This document shows, one piece after another, positions 7,446 through 32,148 of a stretch of DNA of 64,000 bases. Position 1 is the stretch's first letter. The number at the start of each line of letters is the position of its first letter. The position numbers and the translations under genes were made by a program. The stretch comes from a bacterium OM1 bin76. Its GTDB lineage: Bacteria > Actinomycetota > Acidimicrobiia > Spongiisociales > ZC4RG35. The notes beneath the pieces are model-generated. The model was not told the DNA's origin. It was given only the letters and a program-made list of their open reading frames with translations, and made no database searches. Location: positions 8,189 to 72,188 of the forward strand of contig MPNA01000009.1 in NCBI GenBank assembly GCA_002238785.1, given 5' to 3'.

Positions 7446-8570
7446 ATGCTGGTTGACGTGGCCTGGGTGGTGGTGGGCATGGCGGCGCTCATTATCGGGG
7501 CGGAGCGCCTCGTAAGCGCTGCGGAGCGGTTGGCCCACTACTGGGGGATGTCCACTGTCTTGATCGGAGCGGTGGTGGTGGGGCTGGGCACCTCCCTTCC
7601 GGAGATGCTCATCTCCGGTCTGGCGGCCGCCCGCCCGGACGGGCTGGACCTGGCCGCCGGCAACATCGTGGGATCCAATATCGCCAATCTCTCCCTGGTG
7701 CTGGGCGTCTCCATAATCCTCGCTCCGCTCAAAAACGTCACCTCGGATCTGCGGCGCGAGTGGCTGGCCATGCTGGCGGGATCGTTGGTGCTGGTGATTG
7801 CGGCTTGGAACAACGCGTTGTCCCGGCCCAACGGGGTGATTCTGGCGCTTGCGATGGTGGTGGCCCTGATGCTGCTGGTGCGATGGTCCCGGGACATGCA
7901 CTCCATCGAAGGGAAGACGCAAGCCACTGAAGACCCCGGACCTGCCTATTCGGAAGAGGTCGGCGGGTGGTTGGAGAAGGTGAAGGCGAGGAAGGAGTTG
8001 AGTCTTGGGGGCCTGCGCCTTCGCATCAGCCTGGTCCTGTGGAGGGAAATCCTGATGGCCCTGGTGTCGCTGGTCCTGACACTGTGGGGGGCCGACCGGT
8101 TGGTGGACGGCGCCACCGGCATCGCCGAACGGCTGAACATATCCGGAGGACTGGTGGGCCTCACCCTGGTTGCACTGGGCACCTCCCTTCCCGAGTTGGC
8201 CACCGCGGTGGCTGCCGCCCGGCACGGGAACACTGAACTGGTGATAGGGAACGTGCTGGGTTCCAATCTCTTCAATGCCCTGGCAGTGGGTGGCATCGCA
8301 GGACTGGTCGGGGACGGGGCCTTTACCGGCAATTTCCGGGGGAGCCTGTTGTGGATGATGGGCGCCGCGGTGGCGGCCGGGGGGATCGCCAACGGCCTCC
8401 GTGGGTTTGACCAACTGCGACCGTTCCGCAGCAGCAACCGTGTTCTGCAGATGATGGGGGCTGCTCTGGCGACGGGAGACGTTGTCTTTTCCCGATGGTC
8501 CCAAAGCAGGATTGCGGGAGTGGTTCTGGTGGCCTTTTACCCGCTGGCCCTGTTGCTGGCCGGTCTCTAG
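7446..8570 (+). CDS. Ca2+/cation antiporter (CaCA, Na+/Ca2+ exchanger family)
   Basis: Two alpha-repeat signatures, GTSLPEMLIS and GTSLPELATA. About 10 TM helices. Internal duplication. Confidence 0.8.
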   Translation: MLVDVAWVVVGMAALIIGAERLVSAAERLAHYWGMSTVLIGAVVVGLGTSLPEMLISGLAAARPDGLDLAAGNIVGSNIANLSLVLGVSIILAPLKNVTSDLRREWLAMLAGSLVLVIAAWNNALSRPNGVILALAMVVALMLLVRWSRDMHSIEGKTQATEDPGPAYSEEVGGWLEKVKARKELSLGGLRLRISLVLWREILMALVSLVLTLWGADRLVDGATGIAERLNISGGLVGLTLVALGTSLPELATAVAAARHGNTELVIGNVLGSNLFNALAVGGIAGLVGDGAFTGNFRGSLLWMMGAAVAAGGIANGLRGFDQLRPFRSSNRVLQMMGAALATGDVVFSRWSQSRIAGVVLVAFYPLALLLAGL

Positions 8571-22270: not shown

Positions 22271-25264
22271 ATGCGGTTTGTGGTCTTCGACTTGGAAGCG
22301 AACGCCGACCACCCACGCGCCGAGGATCAGGAGGTCATCGAGATCGGCGCCCTCATGGTGGAGGACGGAGCGGTGGTGGACGAATTCACCAGTCTGGTGG
22401 CGCCCACCCCGGGTCGTCCTTTGGCGCCCCTGACGGTTGAATTGACGGGTCTGACCGTCGAATCACTGGAGGGCGCACCCTCCCGGAGGCCCGCCTTGCA
22501 GGGGTTCGCGGAATTCTGTGGTGGCTTGCCTCTGGTGGCCCACAATGGCAGCACCTACGACTTCCCGTTGCTCGACGCCGAATTGGAACGAGCGGGGCTG
22601 CCCGTTCCGTGGGGTGAACGACTGGACACCCTGGAGTTGGCCCATGTGGTGTTCCCCCGGGCAGGGAGGGAGTCCACCTCCGACATGTGGGGCAAGACTC
22701 CACCCCGGTCTCGTCGCCTGACCGATCTGGCCGATCACTACCGAGGCGGTGAGACCGCGGAGCCTGCCCACCGAGCCCTATCCGATGCGCGGAGGGCATG
22801 GGAGGTGATGGAAGGCCTGCTCGAAGACTTGAACCGAGACCAGGCTGCCCGCAGGGCCCAACGGTGGGTTCTGGAGGTCACGGGACATCCTTGGGCGTCG
22901 TTCTGCCGGCCCGATGTGAGCAACCTGGTGGGTTCATACCGGCCTGATCTGGTGGAGATAATCCCATTGCCCGTCCCCGACGGCACGGACGACTCTGAGG
23001 CTGACCCGTGGGACGAGGTGGATTGGGCTGAGGAGACCCAGAGGGAGCAGATCGATCTGGATGAGTTGGTTGACCCGCTCGGTTCGGAGGGGGAGTTGAT
23101 CACCGATGGGATGGAGCACCGGCCCTCGCAGGAGGAGATGGCTCGGCAGGTGGCCGCGGCTCTCGCCGAATCCGGGCGCCTGATGGTGGAGGCGCCGACG
23201 GGAACCGGCAAGACCCTCGCCTATCTGGTCCCAGCCTGCCGGTTGGCCGGCGCCTGGGACTCCCAGGTACTGGTTTCCACCTACACCAAGGCCCTCCAAG
23301 ACCAGGTCTGCAGGACGCTGTCGGACATCTCCGACCGCTTGGGGCCGGTTGAGTGGACTGTGCTGAAGGGCCTGAGCAATTACTTGTCGGTGAACGCCCT
23401 GGCTGAGGAGTTGAACCTGGTCAATCCTCTCGAAGCGGGTCGATTGCGAGATAATCCTCTCTTCGGGGACCGCAGCGATGAGCCGTCCTACGATCATCAT
23501 CTGGGTTTGGCATTGGCCATGGTGCTGGGCTGGGCGGCGGAGACTCCCACCGGAGAGTGGGATGATCTTCGCTACGGGTGGCTTGGGAGATACAACCCCC
23601 AGATGTACCGGCTGAGGTCCCGACTCTCCATGACCGAGACCCCAGGTCGGGCTCGAAGCGACCTGGAGAGGCGGTGCTTCTTCGTCCGTGCCCTGCGGCG
23701 GGTGGCCGAAGCCCAGATCGTGGTGGCCAATCACTCCCTGATGCTGCTTCGGGACCAGATGACGGATCACAGTCCTCATCTGGTAGTCGACGAGGCGCAC
23801 GAGTTGGAAGCGGCGGCACGGTCCGCGTTCACCGGTACGGTCAGCGAACGCGGACTTTGGCGCTTGCTCCATTCGGTGTACAGCTCCAAGACCTCTGGAA
23901 GTCTGCTCCACCGGTATCTGCGTTCCCTGCCGGCCGGCCGAGCCCGGGACCGGGGTCAGGCGGGGGCCGAGCAGGTAATCCGGTCCTGGCGACGCTGCCG
24001 GCCGCACATTGACGAGGTGCGCGCCATCCTGGTGGATTACTTCGAAAGCACTCGCAATTGGTCGGTCAACTGGGATGGGGCGCCGTTTTCTTCGAGAATC
24101 ACCCGGGTCGACCTCAACCGCTTGAGTTGGGGAACAGTCACCCAGGCGCTTCAAGGGCTGGCCGAGGCCGTTTCCCACCTGGGCGGCACTATCGAATCCC
24201 TTCCGGTGCCGGACCGGCTGTCGGGCGATCGGCCTGCCAAGGAGCTCAAGCGTCGTATCACCCAGGCCAGCGGCGACGCCAAGACGATCGCGGAGCTTTC
24301 CTTCCAGTTGGCCAACATCGATCCGGACAAACTGCTGGAAGCGGCTTTCGTCTGCGACCTGGAGTTGCGGGAAGGGGAGTGGAACTGGGGGCTCAGCGCG
24401 GTCCCCTTGGATGTGAATACCCGGTTGGAGGCAATCTGGGAGGAGAAGGAATCGGTGGTGATGACGTCCGCCACGCTCACTGTCTCCGGGTCATTTGACT
24501 ACATCGCCACCGGATTGGGATTCGAGGGCGGTCGAAGGGTGCTGCTGGACAGTCCCTTCTCCGATCTTCCCAGACAGATGCTGGTGGTAATCCCCGGGTA
24601 CCTTCCCAGTCCCAGCGGTTCCAGCCTGGAAGAGTTCGCCCGGTTGGCGCCCGAGGAGATGGCCCGCCTGTTCGAAGTCAGCCGGGGGCGGGCGCTGGTG
24701 CTGTTCACTGCCAACCGGAGGATGGAACAGGCTGCGGCGTACCTCAAGGACCGGCTCTATGGGGAGTACGCCGTGCTCTGCCAGGGAGAGGGGTCGGCGC
24801 CGGAGTTGACCGAGAGTTTCCGCAATCCCTCCCAACCCACCTGCCTGCTGGGGAGCGGCACTTTCTGGCAGGGCATCGACGTGCCCGGCGAGGCGTTGAG
24901 TCTGCTGGTGATGGAGAAACTCCCGTTCAACTCACCGCAGGATCCGGTGGTGGCTGCCCGCCAAGAGGTGATTGCCCGCCGCGGCGGAAACCCTTTCGAC
25001 GACTACCTCCTGCCTGAGGCGGTCCTGGGGTTCCGCCAGGGGGCGGGACGGCTGATCCGCTCCCCCAACGACAAAGGGGTGTTGATAGTTCTGGACAAGC
25101 GGTTGGGGTTCGCCCGCTACGCCTCATCCTTTCTGGACAGTCTCACCGGGTCGCCCCCGGTGTTGAAGGCGGCCAGCCCTGTCCAGTGCTATCGCGCCAT
25201 CGCCCGGCACCTGGGTACCGAATCGGAAGCGATCAGATCGGGCGCCGCCGCCGCGAGGAGATGA
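22271..25264 (+). CDS. dinG: ATP-dependent helicase DinG with an N-terminal DnaQ-like 3'-5' exonuclease domain
   Basis: DEDDh exonuclease motifs (VVFDLEAN..., HRALSDA), then SF2 DinG/Rad3-family helicase motifs (APTGTGKT, DEAHEL, Fe-S-less Gram-positive DinG-type layout). Confidence 0.85.
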   Translation: MRFVVFDLEANADHPRAEDQEVIEIGALMVEDGAVVDEFTSLVAPTPGRPLAPLTVELTGLTVESLEGAPSRRPALQGFAEFCGGLPLVAHNGSTYDFPLLDAELERAGLPVPWGERLDTLELAHVVFPRAGRESTSDMWGKTPPRSRRLTDLADHYRGGETAEPAHRALSDARRAWEVMEGLLEDLNRDQAARRAQRWVLEVTGHPWASFCRPDVSNLVGSYRPDLVEIIPLPVPDGTDDSEADPWDEVDWAEETQREQIDLDELVDPLGSEGELITDGMEHRPSQEEMARQVAAALAESGRLMVEAPTGTGKTLAYLVPACRLAGAWDSQVLVSTYTKALQDQVCRTLSDISDRLGPVEWTVLKGLSNYLSVNALAEELNLVNPLEAGRLRDNPLFGDRSDEPSYDHHLGLALAMVLGWAAETPTGEWDDLRYGWLGRYNPQMYRLRSRLSMTETPGRARSDLERRCFFVRALRRVAEAQIVVANHSLMLLRDQMTDHSPHLVVDEAHELEAAARSAFTGTVSERGLWRLLHSVYSSKTSGSLLHRYLRSLPAGRARDRGQAGAEQVIRSWRRCRPHIDEVRAILVDYFESTRNWSVNWDGAPFSSRITRVDLNRLSWGTVTQALQGLAEAVSHLGGTIESLPVPDRLSGDRPAKELKRRITQASGDAKTIAELSFQLANIDPDKLLEAAFVCDLELREGEWNWGLSAVPLDVNTRLEAIWEEKESVVMTSATLTVSGSFDYIATGLGFEGGRRVLLDSPFSDLPRQMLVVIPGYLPSPSGSSLEEFARLAPEEMARLFEVSRGRALVLFTANRRMEQAAAYLKDRLYGEYAVLCQGEGSAPELTESFRNPSQPTCLLGSGTFWQGIDVPGEALSLLVMEKLPFNSPQDPVVAARQEVIARRGGNPFDDYLLPEAVLGFRQGAGRLIRSPNDKGVLIVLDKRLGFARYASSFLDSLTGSPPVLKAASPVQCYRAIARHLGTESEAIRSGAAAARR

Positions 25265-25715
25265 AGCCGGTATTGAAACCGGCGGCGTGCAGACCGCCGG
25301 CAAAGCGGGCGTGCTCGATTTTCAGGCAACGGTCCTGGACGACTTGCAACCCTGCTTCCCGGGCCCGGGCGGCAGCACCCTCGTGCCGCAGGCCCAGTTG
25401 GAACCACACCACCTTGGCGCCCATTTCGATGGCTTCTTCCACCACTCCGGGGAGATGCTCGGGGCGACGGAACACGTCTACGATGTCGGGAGGCTCGGGG
25501 AGGTCGGCCAGGGTGGGAAAGGTGGGGATCCCCAGTATCTCGGAGTAGACCGGGTTTACCGGGAGGACCTGATAAGGGGTCCGCACCAGGTAGGTGGCCA
25601 CGAAGTTGGAGGACCGCAGCGGGTTGGCGGAGACCCCCACCAAGGCCACAGTGCGTGCTCGCCGCAGTATCCCCAGCCGTTCGGTGGCGGTGGCGTCGTG
25701 GGAACGATCAGACAC
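25233..25715 (-). CDS. CoA-binding domain protein (YccU/CoA_binding_2 family)
   Basis: TVALVGVSANPLRSSN ... VVWFQLG. The 3' end overlaps the dinG 3' end by about 30 nt (convergent). Confidence 0.65.
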   Translation of the reverse strand: MSDRSHDATATERLGILRRARTVALVGVSANPLRSSNFVATYLVRTPYQVLPVNPVYSEILGIPTFPTLADLPEPPDIVDVFRRPEHLPGVVEEAIEMGAKVVWFQLGLRHEGAAARAREAGLQVVQDRCLKIEHARFAGGLHAAGFNTGFISSRRRRPI

Positions 25716-27003
25716 GGGCCGCCTCCGCGAGGGCGCCGTCCAGGTCTGCCAGTATGTCCACGATGTCCTCCAGTCCCACCGAGATGCGAATGGTATCGTC
25801 TCCCACCCCCGCCGCCGCCCGGGCCTCGGGGGAGACCTGCTGGTGGGTGGTGGAGGCGGGGTGGATCACCAAGGTCTTGGCGTCTCCCACATTGGCGAGG
25901 TGACTGGCGAGCCGGATCGATTCGATGAATCTCACTCCCGCTTCGAATCCCTTCTTGAGGCCGAAGGTGAACACCGCACCCGGGCCGGCCGGGGTGTACT
26001 TCTCCACCAGGTCCCTGCCGGGGCTGTCAGGAAAGATCGGGTAGCTCACCCAGGAGACGGCCGGGTGTTCGTACAGGAACACCGCCACCTCCCGGGCGTT
26101 TTGTATGTGACGCTCCATTCGCAGGGGGAGCGTCTCCAGTCCCATCAGCAGGAGAAAGGAGTTGAAGGGGGAGATGGCCGCTCCCACATCGCGCAACAAT
26201 TCGGCCCGGGCCTTGGTGAGATAGGCGTACTCACGAAAGTTCTCCCAGAAACGGAGCCCGTGGTAGGCGGGAGAAGGGTCGGTCATCACCCCGAAACGTC
26301 CGCTGTCCCAGGGAAACAGGCCGGACTCCACGATCGCCCCGGCGATCACCACACCGTGGCCGCCGATGAACTTGGTGGCGGAATGGACTACGATGTCCGC
26401 CCCCCATTCGAAGGGTCGGCACAGCCACGGAGACGCGAAGGTGTTGTCGATCATCAGCGGGATTCCGTGGGAGTGGGCAAGATCGGCGATCGCCTCCAGG
26501 TCGAGTACATCTCCCCGGGGGTTTCCGATCGTCTCTCCGTAAACCAACTTGGTGCGGGGGGTGATGGCCTCCTCGATGTTCTCGAGGCGTGAGGCGTCCA
26601 CGAAGGTGGTGTGGATTCCCATCCGCCGCAGGGTCACGTCGAATTGCGTGATGGTCCCGCCGTACAGGTTGCGGGCAGCCACGATCTCATCCCCTTCCTG
26701 GCAGAGGGTGAGCACCGCCACCAACTGGGCAGCCTGTCCCGAAGCGGTGGCTAAGCCACCCAGGCCCCCTTCCAGGGAAGCCAGGCGCTCCTCGAAGGCG
26801 GCGGTGGTGGGGTTGCTGATCCTGGTGTAGATATCACCGTAGTTCTGGAGCGCGAACAGGTCGGCGGCCGACTGAGCGTCTTCGAAGACAAAGGAACTGG
26901 TGGCGTAGATGGGCATTGCCCGGGCGCCCGTCTCGGGATCGGGCGGTTGTCCGGCGTGGATGGCCCGGGTGGAGAAGCCTGCTGACTCTTCGTTAAAAAC
27001 CAC
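25708..27003 (-). CDS. metY: O-acetylhomoserine aminocarboxypropyltransferase / sulfhydrylase
   Basis: Cys/Met-metabolism PLP enzyme: lysine pocket SATKFIGGHG, NPRGDVLD. GTG start at 27003. Confidence 0.85.
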   Translation of the reverse strand: MVFNEESAGFSTRAIHAGQPPDPETGARAMPIYATSSFVFEDAQSAADLFALQNYGDIYTRISNPTTAAFEERLASLEGGLGGLATASGQAAQLVAVLTLCQEGDEIVAARNLYGGTITQFDVTLRRMGIHTTFVDASRLENIEEAITPRTKLVYGETIGNPRGDVLDLEAIADLAHSHGIPLMIDNTFASPWLCRPFEWGADIVVHSATKFIGGHGVVIAGAIVESGLFPWDSGRFGVMTDPSPAYHGLRFWENFREYAYLTKARAELLRDVGAAISPFNSFLLLMGLETLPLRMERHIQNAREVAVFLYEHPAVSWVSYPIFPDSPGRDLVEKYTPAGPGAVFTFGLKKGFEAGVRFIESIRLASHLANVGDAKTLVIHPASTTHQQVSPEARAAAGVGDDTIRISVGLEDIVDILADLDGALAEAARV

Positions 27004-27206
27004 AGGCCGGAGTCTAGGGATACCCTTGCTCCGGCCTGCAGCGTATCGGAGGGTTGTCCTTACTGTCCGTTCTGACCGGTGGCGATCGGAATCTTGCGGG
27101 GCCGAGATGAGGCCGCCACCGGGATGGTGAGAGTCAGGACTCCATTGGTATAGGAACTGGTCGTCTCGGAGATGTCGAGATCATTGCCGATCACGAACTT
27201 GCGGCG
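26997..27206. repeat. Direct repeat copy 1 (about 210 bp), paired with 29201-29410. Includes a terminator hairpin at 27003-27038.
   Basis: Near-identical to 29201-29410 at an offset of 2204 bp. It is identical over the about 125 nt covering the hsp20 3' coding part, with several mismatches in the last codons and the 3' UTR hairpin (caggccggag...ctccggcctg). Confidence 0.85.
27060..27206 (-). pseudogene. Truncated 3' fragment of a small heat-shock protein (Hsp20) gene inside repeat copy 1
   Basis: Minus-strand translation gives ...FRRKFVIGNDLDISETTSSYTNGVLTLTIPVAASSRPRKIPIATGQNGQ*, the same C-terminus as the intact Hsp20 at 29264-29653. There is no upstream continuation. Confidence 0.7.
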
Positions 27207-27374
27207 AAATCTGACATATCCACCGATATTTGGACGAAAGCCCTGCCGGCTGCACCGACTTCATCCCGGCCTTGTTGCAGCAGACCCCTCCAGCAGAACT
27301 CTGGGCGGCTAAAGGGCTGGGCTTTCGTTACTCTATGGGGGTATTGGCTAGCAAGGCAGGGGAGAGTTTTAGGA

Positions 27375-28505
27375 GTGACTGCCGGAAGAGAACTGCACCT
27401 TCCTGATCTTGCGATCGAGGGTTTCCGCGGTATCGACGAACTCGCGATTCCCCGCCTGGGACGCGTAAACCTGATCACCGGACCGAACGCCGTGGGCAAG
27501 ACCACGGTCTTGGACGCGGTGCGCATTTACGCTTCCCGAAGCGACGATCGGGTGCTGTCCGACCTCCTGACTGTGCGGGAGGAACTATCTGCCGGCACAG
27601 ACGAAGAGGGTGTTCCATGGCGCGAGCCGGATTGGTCCGCCCTCTTCCATGGTCGACAGATTTCAGCAGGTACCCCCATAACGGTTCGATCCGGTGGCGA
27701 CCAACTCATTGTCCAAGAGCACTACGCCAACCGTGAAGAGGCATCACACATCAGTCAACTCTATTTCGAATTCGGTGTGAGTGACCACATTAGGGTGCTG
27801 ACAGTCACATTCCGAGGTCAACAGTGGACGTTGCCATGCTTGATTGAACCCGATGTGGATTTCGCTGGTCGGCGGGACTGGAGAAGACGGCGCAGATTCG
27901 GGTCGGATGACTCACTTCCATCGAAACTCACCTGCGAGTCGCTGGGTCCTGGCGCTTTGACTAATACACAGTTGGCTCGGTTCTGGGACGAAGTTGCATT
28001 GACTGACCACGAAGATCGGGCTACCCGCGCCTTGAGCTTGGTGCTGGGAGATACTGTGGACCGTGTCACTATGGTCGGCGATAATGGCCCGAATCGCAGG
28101 GGCGGTGGACGCCGGGTTGTGGTAAAACTGCGAGGTTTCCGAGGGCGGGTCCCACTCAAGAGTCTCGGTGATGGCGCCTTGCGCATGTTTGGCGTTGCAT
28201 TGGCATTATCCAACAGCAGGAACGGGCTCTTGCTCGTGGACGAGGCAGAGAACGGAATCCATCACTCCGTCCAACCAGACTATTGGCACATGGTCTTCCG
28301 CACTGCTTTTGAGAACAACGTTCAGGTTCTGGCGACTACGCATAGCTGGGACTGCGTCACGGGTTTTGCCAAGGCTGCGGCAGCGAACGAGGATGTTGAA
28401 GGTGTCCTTGTCCGTCTCGATAAGGTCGGCGAGAGTATCCAGGTCGTCCATTACCCGGAGGAAGAGGTTAGGGTCGCCGCCGAGCAGGGCATTGAGGTCA
28501 GGTAG
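27375..28505 (+). CDS. ABC-type AAA ATPase (AAA_21/AAA_15-like; OLD-family/PARIS AriA/AbiLi-like ATPase component)
   Basis: Walker A GPNAVGKTT, ABC signature-like SLGDGALRMF, Walker B LLLVDEAENGIHH, H-loop ATTHS. Lower GC3 than its neighbours. Confidence 0.8.
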   Translation: MTAGRELHLPDLAIEGFRGIDELAIPRLGRVNLITGPNAVGKTTVLDAVRIYASRSDDRVLSDLLTVREELSAGTDEEGVPWREPDWSALFHGRQISAGTPITVRSGGDQLIVQEHYANREEASHISQLYFEFGVSDHIRVLTVTFRGQQWTLPCLIEPDVDFAGRRDWRRRRRFGSDDSLPSKLTCESLGPGALTNTQLARFWDEVALTDHEDRATRALSLVLGDTVDRVTMVGDNGPNRRGGGRRVVVKLRGFRGRVPLKSLGDGALRMFGVALALSNSRNGLLLVDEAENGIHHSVQPDYWHMVFRTAFENNVQVLATTHSWDCVTGFAKAAAANEDVEGVLVRLDKVGESIQVVHYPEEEVRVAAEQGIEVR

Positions 28506-28507
28506 AT

Positions 28508-29146
28508 TTGCCCACTCCTGGTGCGTCGGGGCAAGTTTTGCTGGTCGAGGGCCAAGACGATAAGCACGTCGTCAAGCATCTTTGCCGCGCCACAGGATCA
28601 ATGCCGGATTTCAACATCGAGGTTAAGGGTGGTCTGTACAACCTTCTCAGCGCCATTCCAGTGGAGGTCAAAGCTCCCGGTCGGAAGACTGTTGGAATCA
28701 TGGTTGATGCCAATGATGATCAACAGGCCCGATGGCAAGCGCTAGCGGACCGGTTAGGGAAGGTGGATGTCGCGCTTCCAGGCGATCTCGCTCCCAGTTG
28801 GACAATCATTGAGGGAAGCCACGAAGTCAATCGTCCCCGCATCGGGGTGTGGCTCATGCCTGACAACGTGTCGCCTGGCGAGTTGGAGGACTTCATTGCA
28901 GGCATGATTCCACAGGACGATCCTGTGTGGCCATTGTCTTGTGAATATATTGACGGTATCCCCGAGCCTCGCAAATTCAGCGAGAAAAAGGTCCGGAGGG
29001 CTGAAGTTCACGCCTGGCTGGCCACCCGCAGGGAACCGCGGCGGATGGGGGAGGCGATAAGGACACAAGACTTGGATGTGGGGGAGGACACCTGCAGGAG
29101 GCTTGTGGAATGGCTCCGTCAACTCTTCACGGATCCAGGTTCGTGA
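28508..29146 (+). CDS. Small TOPRIM-like protein (DUF4276/DUF4435-like partner of the ATPase; split OLD-family nuclease component)
   Basis: N-terminal VLLVEGQDDKHVV (TOPRIM catalytic Glu) and IMVDANDD (DxD metal site). TTG start 2 nt after the ATPase stop. 212 aa. Confidence 0.6.
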   Translation: MPTPGASGQVLLVEGQDDKHVVKHLCRATGSMPDFNIEVKGGLYNLLSAIPVEVKAPGRKTVGIMVDANDDQQARWQALADRLGKVDVALPGDLAPSWTIIEGSHEVNRPRIGVWLMPDNVSPGELEDFIAGMIPQDDPVWPLSCEYIDGIPEPRKFSEKKVRRAEVHAWLATRREPRRMGEAIRTQDLDVGEDTCRRLVEWLRQLFTDPGS

Positions 29147-29200
29147 AGAGTCCCGCCGTTCCGCACAACTTGTCCAAGCCACCTGGCCCCGTACTCGGAT

Positions 29201-29410
29201 AAACCACAGGCCGGAGTCTGGGGATACCCTTGCTCCGGCCTGCAGCGTATCGGTTGGCTGTCCTTACTCTCCGTTCTGCGAGGTGGCGATCGGAATCTTG
29301 CGGGGCCGAGATGAGGCCGCCACCGGGATGGTGAGAGTCAGGACTCCATTGGTATAGGAACTGGTCGTCTCGGAGATGTCGAGATCATTGCCGATCACGA
29401 ACTTGCGGCG
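29201..29410. repeat. Direct repeat copy 2 (hsp20 3' end plus terminator hairpin at 29207-29242)
   Basis: See copy 1. This copy is continuous with the intact hsp20 gene. Confidence 0.85.
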
Positions 29411-29653
29411 GAAGGAGCCGCTGGGGCGCTCCACGAAGAACACCCGGGCATCCTCGGGACGCTCCCCGGCAGTGTCCCGCTGGGCAGAGACGGTGAGGGT
29501 GTTCTTCGACACCTCCACATCGATGAACTCGGGGTCCATTCCCGGCATGTCAAGGGTCACCACGAAGTTGTCGTCCACCAGGTAGACCTCGGCGGGCAGG
29601 GTGTTGGAGACCGCCGAAGGGAACTCGAAGAGCGGATTGATCCTGGCCATCAT
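29264..29653 (-). CDS. Hsp20/alpha-crystallin family small heat-shock protein
   Basis: Alpha-crystallin domain (VYLVDDNFVVTLDMPGMDPEFIDVEV ... GVLTLTIP). ATGATG start. Confidence 0.85.
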   Translation of the reverse strand: MMARINPLFEFPSAVSNTLPAEVYLVDDNFVVTLDMPGMDPEFIDVEVSKNTLTVSAQRDTAGERPEDARVFFVERPSGSFRRKFVIGNDLDISETTSSYTNGVLTLTIPVAASSRPRKIPIATSQNGE

Positions 29654-29926
29654 TGGCGCTGTTCCTTTCTGTTGATGATATGAATATCAGATTACGTCCT
29701 ATATAACCCATAGATAATCTGATATATTCCCACTCAGATATAGGGTTACGCCAGTCCCCTGGTTGTCATCAGGTCTTCCCACTCCATCTCTTTTGCTGCA
29801 TCCCGGCTCAGCAAAAATACCTACCTCAAGACCGGATCAGGCCTGGTCACGCCGGTAGGATGCCAAGGAAAGCACAACCATCACAGCAAAACCAAAGGGG
29901 AAAGGTCAGCGGGAAAGGAAGGGGTC
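29654..29926. promoter_or_regulatory. AT-rich divergent promoter/operator region with inverted repeats (gaatatcagatta ... taatctgatatattc)
   Basis: It stands out against the about 67% GC background. It lies between hsp20 (-) and a hypothetical gene (+). The inverted repeat does not match the HAIR or CIRCE consensus. Confidence 0.45.
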
Positions 29927-31129
29927 TTGCCACTCGCCACGCGATTCGAAGAACTGATTGAAGCGGTAGAGGCGGGGGACTCTGGCCGGTGCCGTCTGAT
30001 CGCTGACCTGCTCAAGGCCGAGTATGTCATAGTCCACGACGGACTACGTAATGCCGTGGCTCGTACGCTGGCAGAGGGCATTGAGATCGCCGGCCCTAAA
30101 GAGGGGGAGGCTATCGGGCGACGGGTGGTGCTGGACCTGATGGGCGATGGGGAGATACCCCAGTATTCCCAGGGTCCCATAATGCAACGGCTGAACAACA
30201 TCGCGGCGGGGTGGCATTGGCACGCCACCCAGTTCGAGTTGGTGGAGGAACCGGAGCGGTTTACGTTCATCCTGGGTCCGTGTGGGAGCGGGATGCGTTT
30301 GATCCAGGAAGGCGCCTATAAAGGAGGTAGGGCGCTGCCGCTCTCGGTGCGTCCCACCCTGTCGACCTTCATGTCATCGGACTATCCGAGCTACTGCAAT
30401 CACTGCTCGGAGATGGGCCATGCCGCTCTCCGATTCAACAAAGCCGTTTTCATCGTGGAGGGATGGACGCCTCTTCGGGAGCAGGGCATTTGCCTGCAGC
30501 ACACCTACAAGGACGGTCATCTCCCGCCCGATGAGTTCTATCACCGCGCCGATCTGCCGGCGCCCGATCGGGACCGTCTGGAGTTGAAGGTCGCCGATCC
30601 GAAACGGTGGTTAACGGACGAACAACTGGTGTGGATAGCCACCCATCCTCTCGACCGCTTGATCCAACTAGTGGAAAGTGGGGACCGAGAGCAGGCGAGG
30701 GAATTGGTTGACGAATGCTTGTTCGGATGGAAAGAGGCCATCCATGATGTCTATCGCTTCTGGCTGGCGCTGTTGTGGATCGAGATGCGGGATTCTCTCG
30801 GTCGCCAGGTGATGGAAGACATTGTCAGAAGCTCCGGTTACGAGTTGTTGGCGGTCTTGGATCCCCGCGTGACCCCGGATCCGGGAGCCGCCTGGAAGGA
30901 ATACTGGCGCTGCCATCTACGGCTTAACGACTTTGAAGTCGGTGGGGGGATGGGCGTCTACCGCAACGCGGTTGAGGCTCTGGTGGATCCTTGTTTGGGT
31001 GAGGCGGGTGAGGATGCTGAGGCTCTGGTGGGTCTGATCAGTGAGGGGATCGAGGGTAACGGGCGCGATCTCGGCCGGGTGTTCATCGATAGTGGCGAAC
31101 TCGTACACGAGGTCCGGTTGGCTCTGTGA
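29927..31129 (+). CDS. Hypothetical protein (Cys/His-containing; no family recognised)
   Basis: 400-aa ORF with protein-like composition (CGSGMRL ... YCNHCSEMGH). Putative TTG start preceded by ggaaaggaagggg. Confidence 0.45.
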   Translation: MPLATRFEELIEAVEAGDSGRCRLIADLLKAEYVIVHDGLRNAVARTLAEGIEIAGPKEGEAIGRRVVLDLMGDGEIPQYSQGPIMQRLNNIAAGWHWHATQFELVEEPERFTFILGPCGSGMRLIQEGAYKGGRALPLSVRPTLSTFMSSDYPSYCNHCSEMGHAALRFNKAVFIVEGWTPLREQGICLQHTYKDGHLPPDEFYHRADLPAPDRDRLELKVADPKRWLTDEQLVWIATHPLDRLIQLVESGDREQARELVDECLFGWKEAIHDVYRFWLALLWIEMRDSLGRQVMEDIVRSSGYELLAVLDPRVTPDPGAAWKEYWRCHLRLNDFEVGGGMGVYRNAVEALVDPCLGEAGEDAEALVGLISEGIEGNGRDLGRVFIDSGELVHEVRLAL

Positions 31130-32148
31130 CCTCCCGTCGGCTGGGAATCGGCCTGGTAGGCGCCGGTGAAATCGCCCGGGCAGCGCACCTGCCCGCGTAC
31201 CGCAACAACCCGGATGTCGTGGAACTTCGCGGGGTATTCGATGTTGATACCCGAAAGTGCCGTTCACTGGCACAGGAGGCGGGGGTAGCGGCGACGGAGG
31301 TCATGCAAGGTTTGTTGGAGGACCCTGAAGTAGACCTGATAGACATTGCGGTACCTCCCGGGCGACAGCCTGGTATTGTGATGGCCGCACTGCAGGCGGG
31401 AAAGCATGTTCTTGCCCAGAAGCCACTGGCGACGGACATCGGCGCCGCCGCCCGGTTGGTTGAAATGGCTGATGCCTGTGGAAGGGTGCTGGCGGTCAAC
31501 CAGCAGATGAGATGGGCGCCGGCGATCCTGGACTTTCAGCGGTTTGCCGAAGGCCGGTCGGTGCAGACGGTTGCGTTCGATCTGGTGTGGCCGATCGAAA
31601 GAGGGGACGGGCTGCCGGATTGGCTGACGAACGCGCCGCGTTTTGCCGGTCTGTTCAATACCATCCATTTTCTGGACGCCTGCCGCGCCCTGTTCGGAGA
31701 GCCCGAAGAAGTCCGGGCTTGGGTGGGCCCCAGCGACATTCCGGGGATTGCCGGCGAGTCGGCCCTGTACGCCATTGTGAGGTTTTCCCACCTGTCAGTG
31801 GCGATCCGGGACTCCCGGCGACGGGAGGGTAGGCCCACGGCCTCGCTGCGGGCTGTGGCCGCCGACGGACTCTTCTTCGCCCATCTGGGAATCTGGGACG
31901 CCTACCCGAATCCGAGTCCCGACTTCCTGGTTGAGACAGTGTCGGGTTCGGGACCCACGCTGGTCCGGACCGCGGATTCGTGGGTGCCGGACGCCTTCTC
32001 CAAGGCCTTGCGTCATGTGGCGGAGGCCATCGGCGTCGGCAGGCAACCGCTCATATCAGGGCGGGACAATCTCTTGACGTTGCGTCTGGTGGACGCCTGC
32101 TACGAATCGGCCGAACATCACGGGAGGCCCATCGCCCTTACGGGTTGA
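31126..32148 (+). CDS. Gfo/Idh/MocA-family NAD(P)-dependent oxidoreductase
   Basis: N-terminal Rossmann IGLVGAGEIARAAHLPAY plus a GFO_IDH_MocA C-terminal domain. Confidence 0.8.
   Translation: MTSRRLGIGLVGAGEIARAAHLPAYRNNPDVVELRGVFDVDTRKCRSLAQEAGVAATEVMQGLLEDPEVDLIDIAVPPGRQPGIVMAALQAGKHVLAQKPLATDIGAAARLVEMADACGRVLAVNQQMRWAPAILDFQRFAEGRSVQTVAFDLVWPIERGDGLPDWLTNAPRFAGLFNTIHFLDACRALFGEPEEVRAWVGPSDIPGIAGESALYAIVRFSHLSVAIRDSRRREGRPTASLRAVAADGLFFAHLGIWDAYPNPSPDFLVETVSGSGPTLVRTADSWVPDAFSKALRHVAEAIGVGRQPLISGRDNLLTLRLVDACYESAEHHGRPIALTG

What the first reader, a model, noticed from the sequence alone, without database searches (positions are those of the whole stretch)
26997..29410. About 210-bp direct repeats derived from the hsp20 3' end flank the defense cassette (insertion scar with duplicated gene end and terminator)
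Positions 26997-27206 and 29201-29410 are direct repeats at an offset of 2204 bp. The distal copy is the true 3' end of an intact hsp20 gene plus its terminator hairpin (caggccggag / ctccggcctg). The proximal copy is an orphan hsp20 C-terminal fragment (...PIATGQNGQ*) abutting the metY start codon. The repeats are identical for about 125 nt of coding sequence but diverge at the final codons and in the hairpin region. This suggests either an old duplication followed by drift, or recombination with a paralogous hsp20 copy carried on the incoming DNA. Either way it marks the cassette as a discrete insertion and gives a defined pre-insertion allele to search for.
Basis: seen in the sequence. Interest (0 to 1): 0.55.

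Follow-up and report, generated by a model that had tools for sequence, protein, structure and literature searches.

The report
Duplicated gene end brackets defence cassette
A 2-kb two-gene candidate anti-phage cassette in a sponge-associated Acidimicrobiia genome sits between two ~210-bp copies of the hsp20-end/metY-start junction, and otherwise identical genomes lack exactly that 2,204-bp unit, so this is an ordinary but very clean case of a gene cassette gained or lost by recombination between repeats.

Summary
Windows 26997-27209 and 29201-29413 are direct repeats at offset 2204. Their 8 mismatches in 210 nt all lie in 27016-27077, followed by 129 identical nt. The repeat covers the hsp20 3' end, a strong hairpin and the first 7 nt of metY. 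It brackets an ABC-type ATPase and a DUF3226 protein (PADLOC PDC-M38A/B), and the DUF3226 model has an OLD-like TOPRIM fold.

Empty sites exist. Three contigs from other samples (20.4, 19.9 and 2.2 kb) are exact substrings of the window with 2,204 bp looped out. They carry the proximal-type tail, so the "orphan" copy is the allele found in empty genomes, as a full-length hsp20 ending TGQNGQ. The distal tail (TSQNGE) is linked to the cassette.

Thirteen related species have hsp20 abutting metY with no cassette. At least four other lineages carry the cassette at the same site, with the same right junction but different left junctions. Cassette divergence roughly matches flank divergence.

Best reading: an old locus-bound islet turned over by homologous recombination between the repeats. 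Whether the isogenic pair reflects loss or gain is unresolved. There is no recombinase and no sign of an artefact. This is a new example of a known kind and of modest interest.

The parts
26997..27209 (-). Proximal direct repeat (P). It holds the first 7 nt of metY, the hairpin, the intergenic spacer and the last 135 nt of an hsp20 coding sequence. It has the same sequence as the hsp20 end in empty-site genomes.
29201..29413 (-). Distal direct repeat (D). It holds a 7-nt remnant of the metY start, the hairpin, the spacer and the functional 3' end of the intact hsp20. It carries the 8 cassette-linked variants.
27078..27206 (.). 129-nt stretch identical to 29282-29410. This is the inferred crossover zone, because any crossover here gives the observed empty allele.
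   Evidence: two deletion registers give the same product, which contains L091, L092 and L093 exactly
27003..27038 (-). Hairpin, proximal copy (10-bp core stem, extendable to about 14 bp). Its 3' arm ends on the G of the metY GTG. It contains TAGACT (27011-27016) 7 nt upstream of the GTG, a candidate -10 box for a leaderless metY mRNA (inferred).
29207..29242 (-). Hairpin, distal copy, the probable terminator of the intact hsp20. The loop base change gives CAGACT (29215-29220), which removes the -10-like TANNNT motif.
27060..27194 (-). hsp20 C-terminal fragment (44 codons, ending PIATGQNGQ*).
29264..29653 (-). Intact hsp20 (129 aa, ending PIATSQNGE*).
25708..27003 (-). metY (O-acetylhomoserine sulfhydrylase family, PLP-dependent). 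The GTG start is conserved in relatives.
27210..27374 (+). Cassette left non-coding arm, upstream of the ATPase. From about 27240 it is homologous in L095 and L097, and from about 27276 in L096. Its junction with the hsp20 fragment differs between lineages.
27375..28505 (+). ABC/SMC-type ATPase (AAA_21/AAA_15). PADLOC PDC-M38A E = 1.5e-74, AbiLi E = 1e-41.
28508..29146 (+). DUF3226 protein. PADLOC PDC-M38B E = 2.8e-38. The predicted fold is TOPRIM, OLD-nuclease-like.
29147..29200 (+). Cassette right non-coding tail. Its junction to the distal hairpin is homologous in L096, L098 and L099.

Best explanation
The two repeats are a true duplication of the junction between two conserved, adjacent core genes. 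The duplicated segment runs from the last ~135 nt of hsp20 through the hsp20 terminator hairpin to the first 7 nt of metY. It brackets a 2-kb recombinase-less cassette of a split OLD-like ATPase and TOPRIM pair (PADLOC candidate PDC-M38, AbiL-like).

The cassette has sat at this one locus for a long time in a small clade of sponge-associated Acidimicrobiia. Its presence or absence is governed by ordinary RecA-type homologous recombination between the repeats. A crossover in the 129-nt identical core loops out a 2,204-bp circle holding the cassette and the distal tail. What remains is an intact hsp20 that now ends with the proximal-type tail, followed directly by metY. The same repeat could serve as the homology for Campbell-type reintegration or for transfer between strains.

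I take the isogenic empty genomes to be loop-out deletion products. The duplication is tolerated, and probably required, because the hairpin region does double duty. It ends hsp20, and it carries the metY start codon with a conserved -10-like box 7 nt upstream. Only an arrangement that gives each gene its own copy keeps both genes working.

Shown: the repeats, the exact empty allele, the linkage of the distal tail with the cassette, occupancy of the same site in several lineages, and the variable left junctions. Inferred: the recombination mechanism, the direction of the event, and the promoter and terminator roles.
For: (1) Deleting 27207-29410 from the window gives a sequence that contains L091 (20,390 bp), L092 (19,866 bp) and L093 (2,175 bp) as exact substrings. 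Both flanks are 100% identical over about 10 kb each.
(2) A full-length hsp20 with the proximal-type tail exists (P0049) and is found only at empty sites.
(3) ENA sample ERZ27241794 yields both alleles. The empty 71.5-kb contig is L091. The cassette appears as a 2,088-nt contig (L010) that starts inside the proximal repeat and stops 45 nt short of the distal one.
(4) The cassette occupies the same hsp20|metY site in L095+L098, L096, L097 and L099. The right junction is homologous in L096, L098 and L099. The left junction leaves 0 nt of hsp20 coding sequence in L095, about 24 nt in L096, 135 nt in the window and at least 183 nt in L097, as expected if a redundant copy erodes by deletion.
(5) Cassette nucleotide identity to the window (83-89%) is similar to that of flanking core genes (73-91%). 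NJ trees place the window+L004, L011+L099 and L095/L098 in one clade, each branch of which has an occupied member. That favours long residence with repeated loss.
(6) The two empty alleles of the window species differ in a way that mirrors the two repeats. L091 has the proximal tail throughout. L004 has the distal-type coding tail and a mostly proximal-type spacer and loop.
(7) No integrase or transposase gene lies in the unit, no inverted repeats lie at its ends, and its G+C (0.55-0.59) is below that of the metY-side flank (0.63-0.67).
(8) All 17 metY-adjacent copies keep TA[A/G]ACT exactly 7 nt before the GTG, with compensatory changes in the stem. Two of four distal copies have lost the motif.
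Against: The direction is not proven, because a single-crossover insertion into an L091-like genome gives the identical structure. If the duplication were as old as the cassette, the proximal hsp20 fragment should have diverged. Instead it is identical to the distal copy for 129 nt and shares species-specific codons (YTNG, where relatives have YENG). That requires gene conversion or a recent re-formation of the repeat. L004 is not a clean single-crossover product: across the six variable sites its pattern is D, D, P, D, P, P. In the hairpin region the window's distal copy is closer to its own proximal copy (94%) than to the distal copies of other lineages (57-82%). The repeat has therefore been homogenised or re-created within the species. 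No circular product was seen. The promoter-scan tool called neither a promoter nor the terminator here, so those roles rest on conservation and on general knowledge of actinobacterial -10 boxes and leaderless mRNAs.
Confidence: 0.55

Rival explanations
1. Recent gain. An L091-like empty genome (resident tail TGQNGQ) acquired the cassette from a conspecific or closely related donor. Acquisition was either by single-crossover (Campbell-type) integration of a 2,204-bp circle carrying its own hsp20 3' end, or by double crossover in hsp20 and in the proximal fragment or metY. The distal tail TSQNGE and the loop change were imported with the cassette.
For: The product is structurally identical to what is seen. 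All 8 differences from the empty allele lie in the distal copy, next to the cassette. TGQNGQ-like tails are the commoner, ancestral-looking state (L098 D copy, L096 P copy, L011 and L099 end in NGQ). This makes the L091 allele look resident and TSQNGE look derived. The 129-nt identity of the two copies follows automatically if the proximal copy is simply the resident gene end. The distal spacer GGACAGCCAACCGAT is shared with the distal copy of another occupied lineage, L099.
Against: It needs a donor whose hsp20 3' region is identical over 129 nt, so the donor would be the same population, which must already hold the occupied allele. It does not explain how the cassette came to sit at the same site in at least four other lineages with host-like divergence. 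No DNA-transfer vehicle is evident: there was no match in viral contigs and there are no mobility genes.
Confidence: 0.3
2. A site-specific recombinase encoded elsewhere recognises the conserved hairpin as an attachment site and moves the cassette. The repeats would then be attL and attR.
For: The hairpin is present at both ends in every occupied lineage for which that end was seen. In L095 the proximal repeat is reduced to little more than the hairpin. The same site is used in several lineages. An unrelated ISL3-like element also landed between hsp20 and the hairpin in L020.
Against: There is no recombinase gene in or next to the unit. The repeat length varies from about 45 nt to at least 250 nt between lineages instead of having a fixed core. 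The empty allele is explained by a crossover anywhere in the 129-nt core. Conservation of the hairpin is explained by its roles for hsp20 and metY, since it is equally conserved in species that never show the cassette.
Confidence: 0.05
3. In-situ duplication followed by neutral drift of the orphan copy.
For: The proximal hsp20 fragment is non-functional, so it is free to drift. The hsp20 C-terminal tail is hypervariable among orthologues.
Against: The proximal tail is not a drifted sequence. It is the exact tail of full-length hsp20 genes in four empty-site contigs. The 8 mismatches all lie in 62 nt, next to 129 identical nt, and one codon differs at all three positions (GGT versus TCG). That looks like allele exchange, not point-mutation drift.
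Confidence: 0.03
4. Assembly artefact: a collapsed or duplicated repeat created by the assembler.
For: Short contigs break at the repeats in two samples (L006, L010), which shows the repeats do confuse assemblers.
Against: The same structure occurs, base for base, in at least six assemblies from different samples and pipelines. The two copies differ at 8 sites. Separate contigs span each junction.
Confidence: 0.01

Closest known systems
Campbell-type (single-crossover) integration and loop-out between direct repeats, as with suicide-plasmid 'pop-in/pop-out' integrants and RecA-dependent deletion between repeats (general knowledge)
   Same: The inserted DNA is bracketed by direct copies of the homologous segment. 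The two copies are reciprocal chimeras of resident and incoming sequence. Loss by a crossover in the repeat restores a single intact copy. The simulated loop-out reproduces the natural empty allele exactly.
   Different: This is a natural chromosomal islet. No vector, circle or transfer route was observed, and the origin of the first duplication is unknown.
Integrase-mediated genomic islands and prophages that target the 3' end of a gene (tRNA, tmRNA or protein-coding genes) and carry a replacement gene end in attP
   Same: The gene's 3' end is duplicated, so the target gene stays intact. The cassette-linked copy supplies the functional end and the displaced native end remains as a fragment. 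The empty site holds a single copy.
   Different: There is no integrase or excisionase. The repeat is about 210 bp, imperfect and of different length in different lineages, rather than a short fixed core. The unit is only 2.2 kb with two cargo genes.
Core-genome defence hotspots: defence systems lodged between conserved core genes without mobility genes (for example Pseudomonas aeruginosa core defence hotspots, PMC10250203, seen by title and abstract only)
   Same: A defence-type cassette lies between two housekeeping genes with conserved synteny. It is polymorphic for presence or absence among close relatives. No mobile-element marker genes are present.
   Different: Only one cassette type was seen at this site, plus one IS in L020. 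The flanking duplication gives an explicit recombination substrate.
Split OLD-like ATPase + TOPRIM defence pairs: PARIS (AriA/AriB), AbiL (AbiLi/AbiLii), Gabija GajA, class 2 OLD nucleases
   Different: The best match is the untested candidate family PDC-M38. The second protein is DUF3226, not DUF4435 (AriB), and no AbiLii model matched. No defence phenotype is known.

Membership tests
Insertion/deletion unit bounded by a duplicated target segment | Two copies in direct orientation flank the unit, and there is a single copy at the empty site | tested here: met
   one copy in L091, L092, L093, L004 and 13 related species; two copies in the window
Insertion/deletion unit bounded by a duplicated target segment | Flanks outside the unit are collinear and near-identical between occupied and empty alleles | tested here: met
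   100% identity over 10,147 bp on one side and 10,243 bp on the other
Integrase-mediated genomic island | A tyrosine or serine recombinase gene lies in or next to the island | tested here: not met
   the unit holds only the ATPase and the DUF3226 gene, and the neighbours are metY, a CoA-binding protein, a DinG-like helicase, hsp20 and sugar-metabolism genes
Integrase-mediated genomic island | A short att core of fixed extent is shared by all integrations | tested here: not met
   the extent of the proximal repeat differs in the window, L095, L096 and L097
Transposon / insertion sequence | Terminal inverted repeats and a short (2-15 bp) target-site duplication | tested here: not met
   no inverted repeats at the ends of the unit, and the duplication is 210 bp. 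L020 shows by contrast what a real IS looks like at this site (28-nt IRs)
PADLOC candidate system PDC-M38 | Adjacent genes match the PDC-M38A and PDC-M38B models | tested here: met
   A E = 1.5e-74 (full length), B E = 2.8e-38 (full length). The genes are 2 nt apart on the same strand
PADLOC candidate system PDC-M38 | A demonstrated anti-phage phenotype | not testable with these tools
   No paper mentions PDC-M38 or DUF3226 in the searchable library
TOPRIM / OLD-family nuclease domain (second gene) | TOPRIM fold | tested here: met
   [not shown]
TOPRIM / OLD-family nuclease domain (second gene) | Sequence match to a TOPRIM family and conserved acidic catalytic residues | tested here: inconclusive
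   Pfam OLD-like_TOPRIM E = 0.16, below threshold. E14, D67 and E127 are invariant and D17 and D119 nearly invariant in 23 homologues, but they were not mapped onto an active site
PARIS (AriA/AriB) | AriB-type DUF4435 TOPRIM partner | tested here: not met
   the second protein matches only DUF3226 / PDC-M38B, and the AriA match of the ATPase is partial (E = 6e-20)
AbiL (AbiLi/AbiLii) | Both AbiLi and AbiLii models match | tested here: not met
   AbiLi E = 1e-41 for the ATPase, and no AbiLii hit for the second protein at E <= 0.01
Intrinsic terminator (hairpin after hsp20) | A stable G+C-rich hairpin followed by a U tract | tested here: inconclusive
   The hairpin folds at -36 to -37 kcal/mol, z about -4.5. 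The U tract is UUUUU in the proximal copy but only UUUAU in the distal copy that follows hsp20. The scan tool did not call it because the loop is longer than 8 nt

The most novel reading that the evidence does not exclude
The cassette is a recombinase-free, homology-addressed mobile unit. It leaves the chromosome as a 2.2-kb circle that carries its own copy of the hsp20 end and hairpin as an address label, and it re-enters related genomes by host RecA at exactly this junction. This would be a way for small defence cassettes to spread between symbiont lineages without any mobility gene. The duplicated regulatory hairpin would ensure that both neighbouring genes survive each cycle.
Probability: 0.12. 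Interest if true: 0.55.

Novelty: new member of a known kind. Interest (0 to 1): 0.3.

Why it matters
This locus gives a base-exact natural example of how a small defence-type cassette is kept polymorphic inside an otherwise clonal symbiont population. The host's own recombination, acting on a 210-bp duplicated gene end, is enough, and no mobile-element machinery is needed. It corrects a tempting annotation error: the intact gene's end is the cassette-linked one, and the "pseudogene fragment" is the resident allele. It also provides matched occupied and empty genomes from the same samples. These are the ideal material for testing whether PDC-M38 (ATPase + DUF3226/TOPRIM) has a phage-defence phenotype or a fitness cost. 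It does not reveal a new mechanism.

Tried and rejected
- A degenerate DNA pattern for the hsp20 tail was scanned against metagenome contigs and found 0 matches. Contigs from JGI samples carrying this sequence exist in the other index, so that collection evidently does not cover these samples. The allele census was done through exact-protein look-ups instead.
- An Rfam scan of 26700-29900 at E <= 10 gave only chance-level hits and no riboswitch upstream of metY.
- A viral-contig scan with the ATPase found no match.
- The consensus promoter and terminator scan called nothing at the hairpins.
- I tested whether homology between the copies extends beyond the repeat boundaries, which would indicate an older and larger duplication. 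It is not significant in the window (p about 0.5-0.8). It is marginal in the L098/L095 genome, where 21 nt next to the distal hairpin resemble the metY 5' end (p about 0.01).
- I tested whether distal copies from different lineages group together, which would indicate an ancient distal lineage. Overall they do not. The window's distal copy is 94% identical to its own proximal copy but only 82% and 61% identical to the distal copies of L099 and L098, although a 15-nt spacer is shared with L099.
- Literature searches for DUF3226 and PDC-M38 returned no papers.
- The idea that the cassette is clearly more similar between lineages than the flanks, which would indicate horizontal transfer, was dropped after per-gene comparison. 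The first whole-region figures (85% versus 75-78%) were driven by the fast-evolving helicase. metY and hsp20 are as similar as the cassette.


Full report
**Observation**

The region holds one long direct repeat, at 26997-27209 and 29201-29413. It is 96% identical at an offset of 2204, and nothing comparable occurs in 24000-32000.

The mismatches are at 27016, 27050, 27051, 27054, 27065 and 27075-27077, plus 27207 at the edge. Positions 27078-27206 are 129 identical nt.

All features of the repeat lie on the minus strand. Read in the hsp20 direction, it contains:
- the last 135 nt of an hsp20 coding sequence;
- a 21-nt spacer;
- a strong hairpin, CAGGCCGGAG-N16-CTCCGGCCTG. It occurs exactly twice in 64 kb against 0 expected and folds at -37 and -36 kcal/mol with z about -4.5;
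- the first 7 nt of metY, whose GTG (27003-27001) is the last base of the 3' arm of the stem.

The distal copy ends an intact 129-aa HSP20, and the proximal copy is a 44-codon fragment. One refinement: the stems are identical in both copies and only one loop base differs.

**What lies between the repeats**

Two co-directional genes, 2 nt apart, lie between the repeats.
- The first (27375-28505) is an ABC/SMC-type ATPase (AAA_21, AAA_15).
- The second (28508-29146) is a DUF3226 protein.

They match the PADLOC candidate system PDC-M38 over their full lengths (A E = 1.5e-74, B E = 2.8e-38). The ATPase also matches AbiLi (1e-41) and, more weakly, AriA and GajA.

The unit contains no recombinase gene, and no inverted repeats mark its ends. 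Its G+C (0.55-0.59) is below that of the metY-side flank (0.63-0.67).

**The empty site exists, and it is exact**

Looking up the exact hsp20 protein found the same occupied locus in assemblies from several samples. It also found one empty site in a 98.4%-identical relative (L004: hsp20, hairpin, metY).

I then built the hypothetical full-length hsp20 carrying the proximal-type C-terminus (TGQNGQ). That exact protein is in the public collection (P0049). It is encoded on four contigs, all with hsp20 directly abutting metY (L091-L094).

L091 and L092 are 100% identical to the window for about 10 kb on each side. They differ only at the 8 repeat positions, where they carry the proximal-type base.

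Deleting 27207-29410 from the window gives a sequence that contains L091 (20,390 bp), L092 (19,866 bp) and L093 (2,175 bp) as exact substrings. Any other deletion register within the 129-nt core gives the same product.

One ENA sample (ERZ27241794) yields both alleles. The empty 71.5-kb contig is L091. The cassette appears as a 2,088-nt contig that starts inside the proximal repeat and stops 45 nt short of the distal one. Among eight contigs with an identical MetY, six are occupied and two are empty.

The "orphan" proximal copy matches the allele of the empty genomes. The distal tail (TSQNGE, spacer changes and one loop base) is linked to the cassette. Both tails occur as ends of full-length hsp20 genes at empty sites: TGQNGQ in L091-L094 and TSQNGE in L004. 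The differences are therefore allelic and are not the drift of a dead copy.

The tail after RPRKIP is hypervariable among orthologues. This explains why the variation concentrates there.

**Wider distribution**

A scan of species-representative genomes with MetY returned 15 close relatives (88-93% aa). All are Acidimicrobiia MAGs, several with sponge- or coral-type isolate names.

hsp20 could be seen upstream in 13 of them. In 12 it ends about 60 nt before metY with no cassette. In the thirteenth (L020) an ISL3-like element with 28-nt inverted repeats sits between the hsp20 stop codon and the hairpin.

No relative shows the duplication without the cassette.

Homologue searches with the ATPase and the DUF3226 protein, followed by context look-ups, found the cassette at the same site in at least four other lineages:
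- L095+L098, two halves of one locus from one sample;
- L096;
- L097;
- L099.

The right junction (DUF3226 stop, a tail of about 55 nt, hairpin, hsp20 stop) is homologous in L096, L098 and L099. The left junction differs between lineages:
- L095 keeps only the hairpin next to metY.
- L096 keeps about 24 nt of hsp20 coding sequence.
- The window keeps 135 nt.
- L097 keeps a fragment reaching about codon 68.

**Age of the cassette at this locus**

Per-gene nucleotide identity to the window is 83-89% for the cassette genes and 73-91% for the flanking core genes. NJ trees place the window+L004, L011+L099 and L095/L098 in one clade, and every branch has an occupied member.

L011 (empty) and L099 (occupied) are 97.2% identical, and their differences concentrate in the hairpin region.

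In the L095/L098 genome the two hairpin copies are strongly diverged (62% identical). In the window they are 94% identical.

**Mechanism**

The simplest account is an old, locus-bound islet whose presence or absence is set by host homologous recombination between the flanking repeats.

A crossover in the 129-nt core loops out 2,204 bp and leaves an intact hsp20 with the proximal tail. That is exactly what is observed. Erosion of the redundant proximal fragment explains the variable left junctions. It also explains why the cassette in L095/L098, where the repeat is short and diverged, should now be stable.

I favour loss as the origin of the isogenic empty genomes, for two reasons:
- The cassette is clade-wide with host-like divergence.
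- The two different empty alleles in the window species mirror the two repeats.

The reverse event, single-crossover integration of a circle or transfer by recombination from a conspecific donor, gives the same structure. It explains more naturally why the proximal fragment is identical to the resident gene and carries species-specific codons. Under the loss model, that identity requires gene conversion. L004 is not a clean single-crossover product either. The direction therefore remains open, at roughly 55:30.

**Why a duplication**

All 17 metY-adjacent copies keep TA[A/G]ACT exactly 7 nt upstream of the GTG, while the stem shows compensatory changes between species.

From general knowledge of actinobacterial promoters (a TANNNT -10 box, and leaderless mRNAs that start at the start codon), this looks like the metY promoter embedded in the hsp20 terminator hairpin. 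An insertion that split the two genes without duplicating this element would damage one of them.

Consistent with that, the distal copy has lost the motif in the window (CAGACT) and in L099 (CTGACT). This step is inference. The consensus scan tool called nothing here, and Rfam found no riboswitch.

**Comparison with known systems**

The architecture matches Campbell-type integration and loop-out. It resembles integrase-borne islands that carry a replacement 3' gene end, but it fails their defining tests: there is no recombinase and no fixed att core. It is not a transposon, since it has no terminal inverted repeats and its duplication is 210 bp. It fits the picture of defence systems lodged in core-genome hotspots without mobility genes (PMC10250203, seen by title and abstract).

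The cargo is a member of the untested PADLOC candidate family PDC-M38. It works like split OLD, PARIS and AbiL pairs but fails the membership tests for PARIS (no DUF4435 partner) and AbiL (no AbiLii match).

**Verdict**

It needs correction on which copy is native and on the assumed direction.
- This is a clean new example of a known kind of event and is of modest interest.
- Its practical value is the matched occupied and empty genomes for testing the cassette's function.

Noticed in passing
window 27001-27016 (minus strand); distal counterpart 29205-29220: The metY GTG start is the last base of the hairpin's 3' arm. A TA[A/G]ACT motif lies exactly 7 nt upstream in all 17 metY-adjacent copies examined across species, while the stem co-varies. 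It looks like a -10 box for a leaderless metY mRNA embedded in the hsp20 terminator. The distal copy carries CAGACT, and the distal copy in L099 carries CTGACT.
   Followed up: partly
L020 6508-7946 (CBDFJY010000002.1): In a related species an ISL3-like insertion sequence lies between the hsp20 stop codon and the hairpin. It has 28-nt terminal inverted repeats and its transposase is split into two ORFs. The same intergenic spot has therefore been hit by an unrelated element.
   Followed up: partly
window 29927-32148 versus L004 1-376: The 98.4%-identical relative L004 lacks the two genes on the other side of hsp20, a 400-aa protein with no Pfam family and a GFO_IDH_MocA oxidoreductase. In L004 the AP_endonuc_2 gene abuts the hsp20 promoter. 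Several related species also lack these genes there, so both flanks of hsp20 are variable.
   Followed up: partly
window 29264-29290 (hsp20 C-terminus); alignment A2: The last 6-9 residues of this HSP20, after the conserved RPRKIP, differ in nearly every orthologue in both sequence and length. Within the window species two tails (TGQNGQ and TSQNGE) coexist.
   Followed up: partly
L010 and L091 (both ENA ERZ27241794); L006 and L009 (ERZ27241797): Occupied and empty alleles co-occur in one sample, and the assemblers broke contigs at or near the repeats. MAGs of this organism may therefore silently drop or keep the cassette depending on the assembly path.
   Followed up: partly
[not shown]
   Followed up: partly
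window 29927-31129: A conserved 400-aa ORF next to hsp20 has no Pfam match. It is syntenic with the GFO_IDH oxidoreductase in several relatives.
   Followed up: no
L098 about 1235-1256 versus L095 about 7846-7866: In the L095/L098 genome, 21 nt next to the distal hairpin resemble the metY 5' coding end beside the proximal hairpin (local alignment p about 0.01). This hints that the original duplication reached further into metY than the 7 nt seen in the window.
   Followed up: partly
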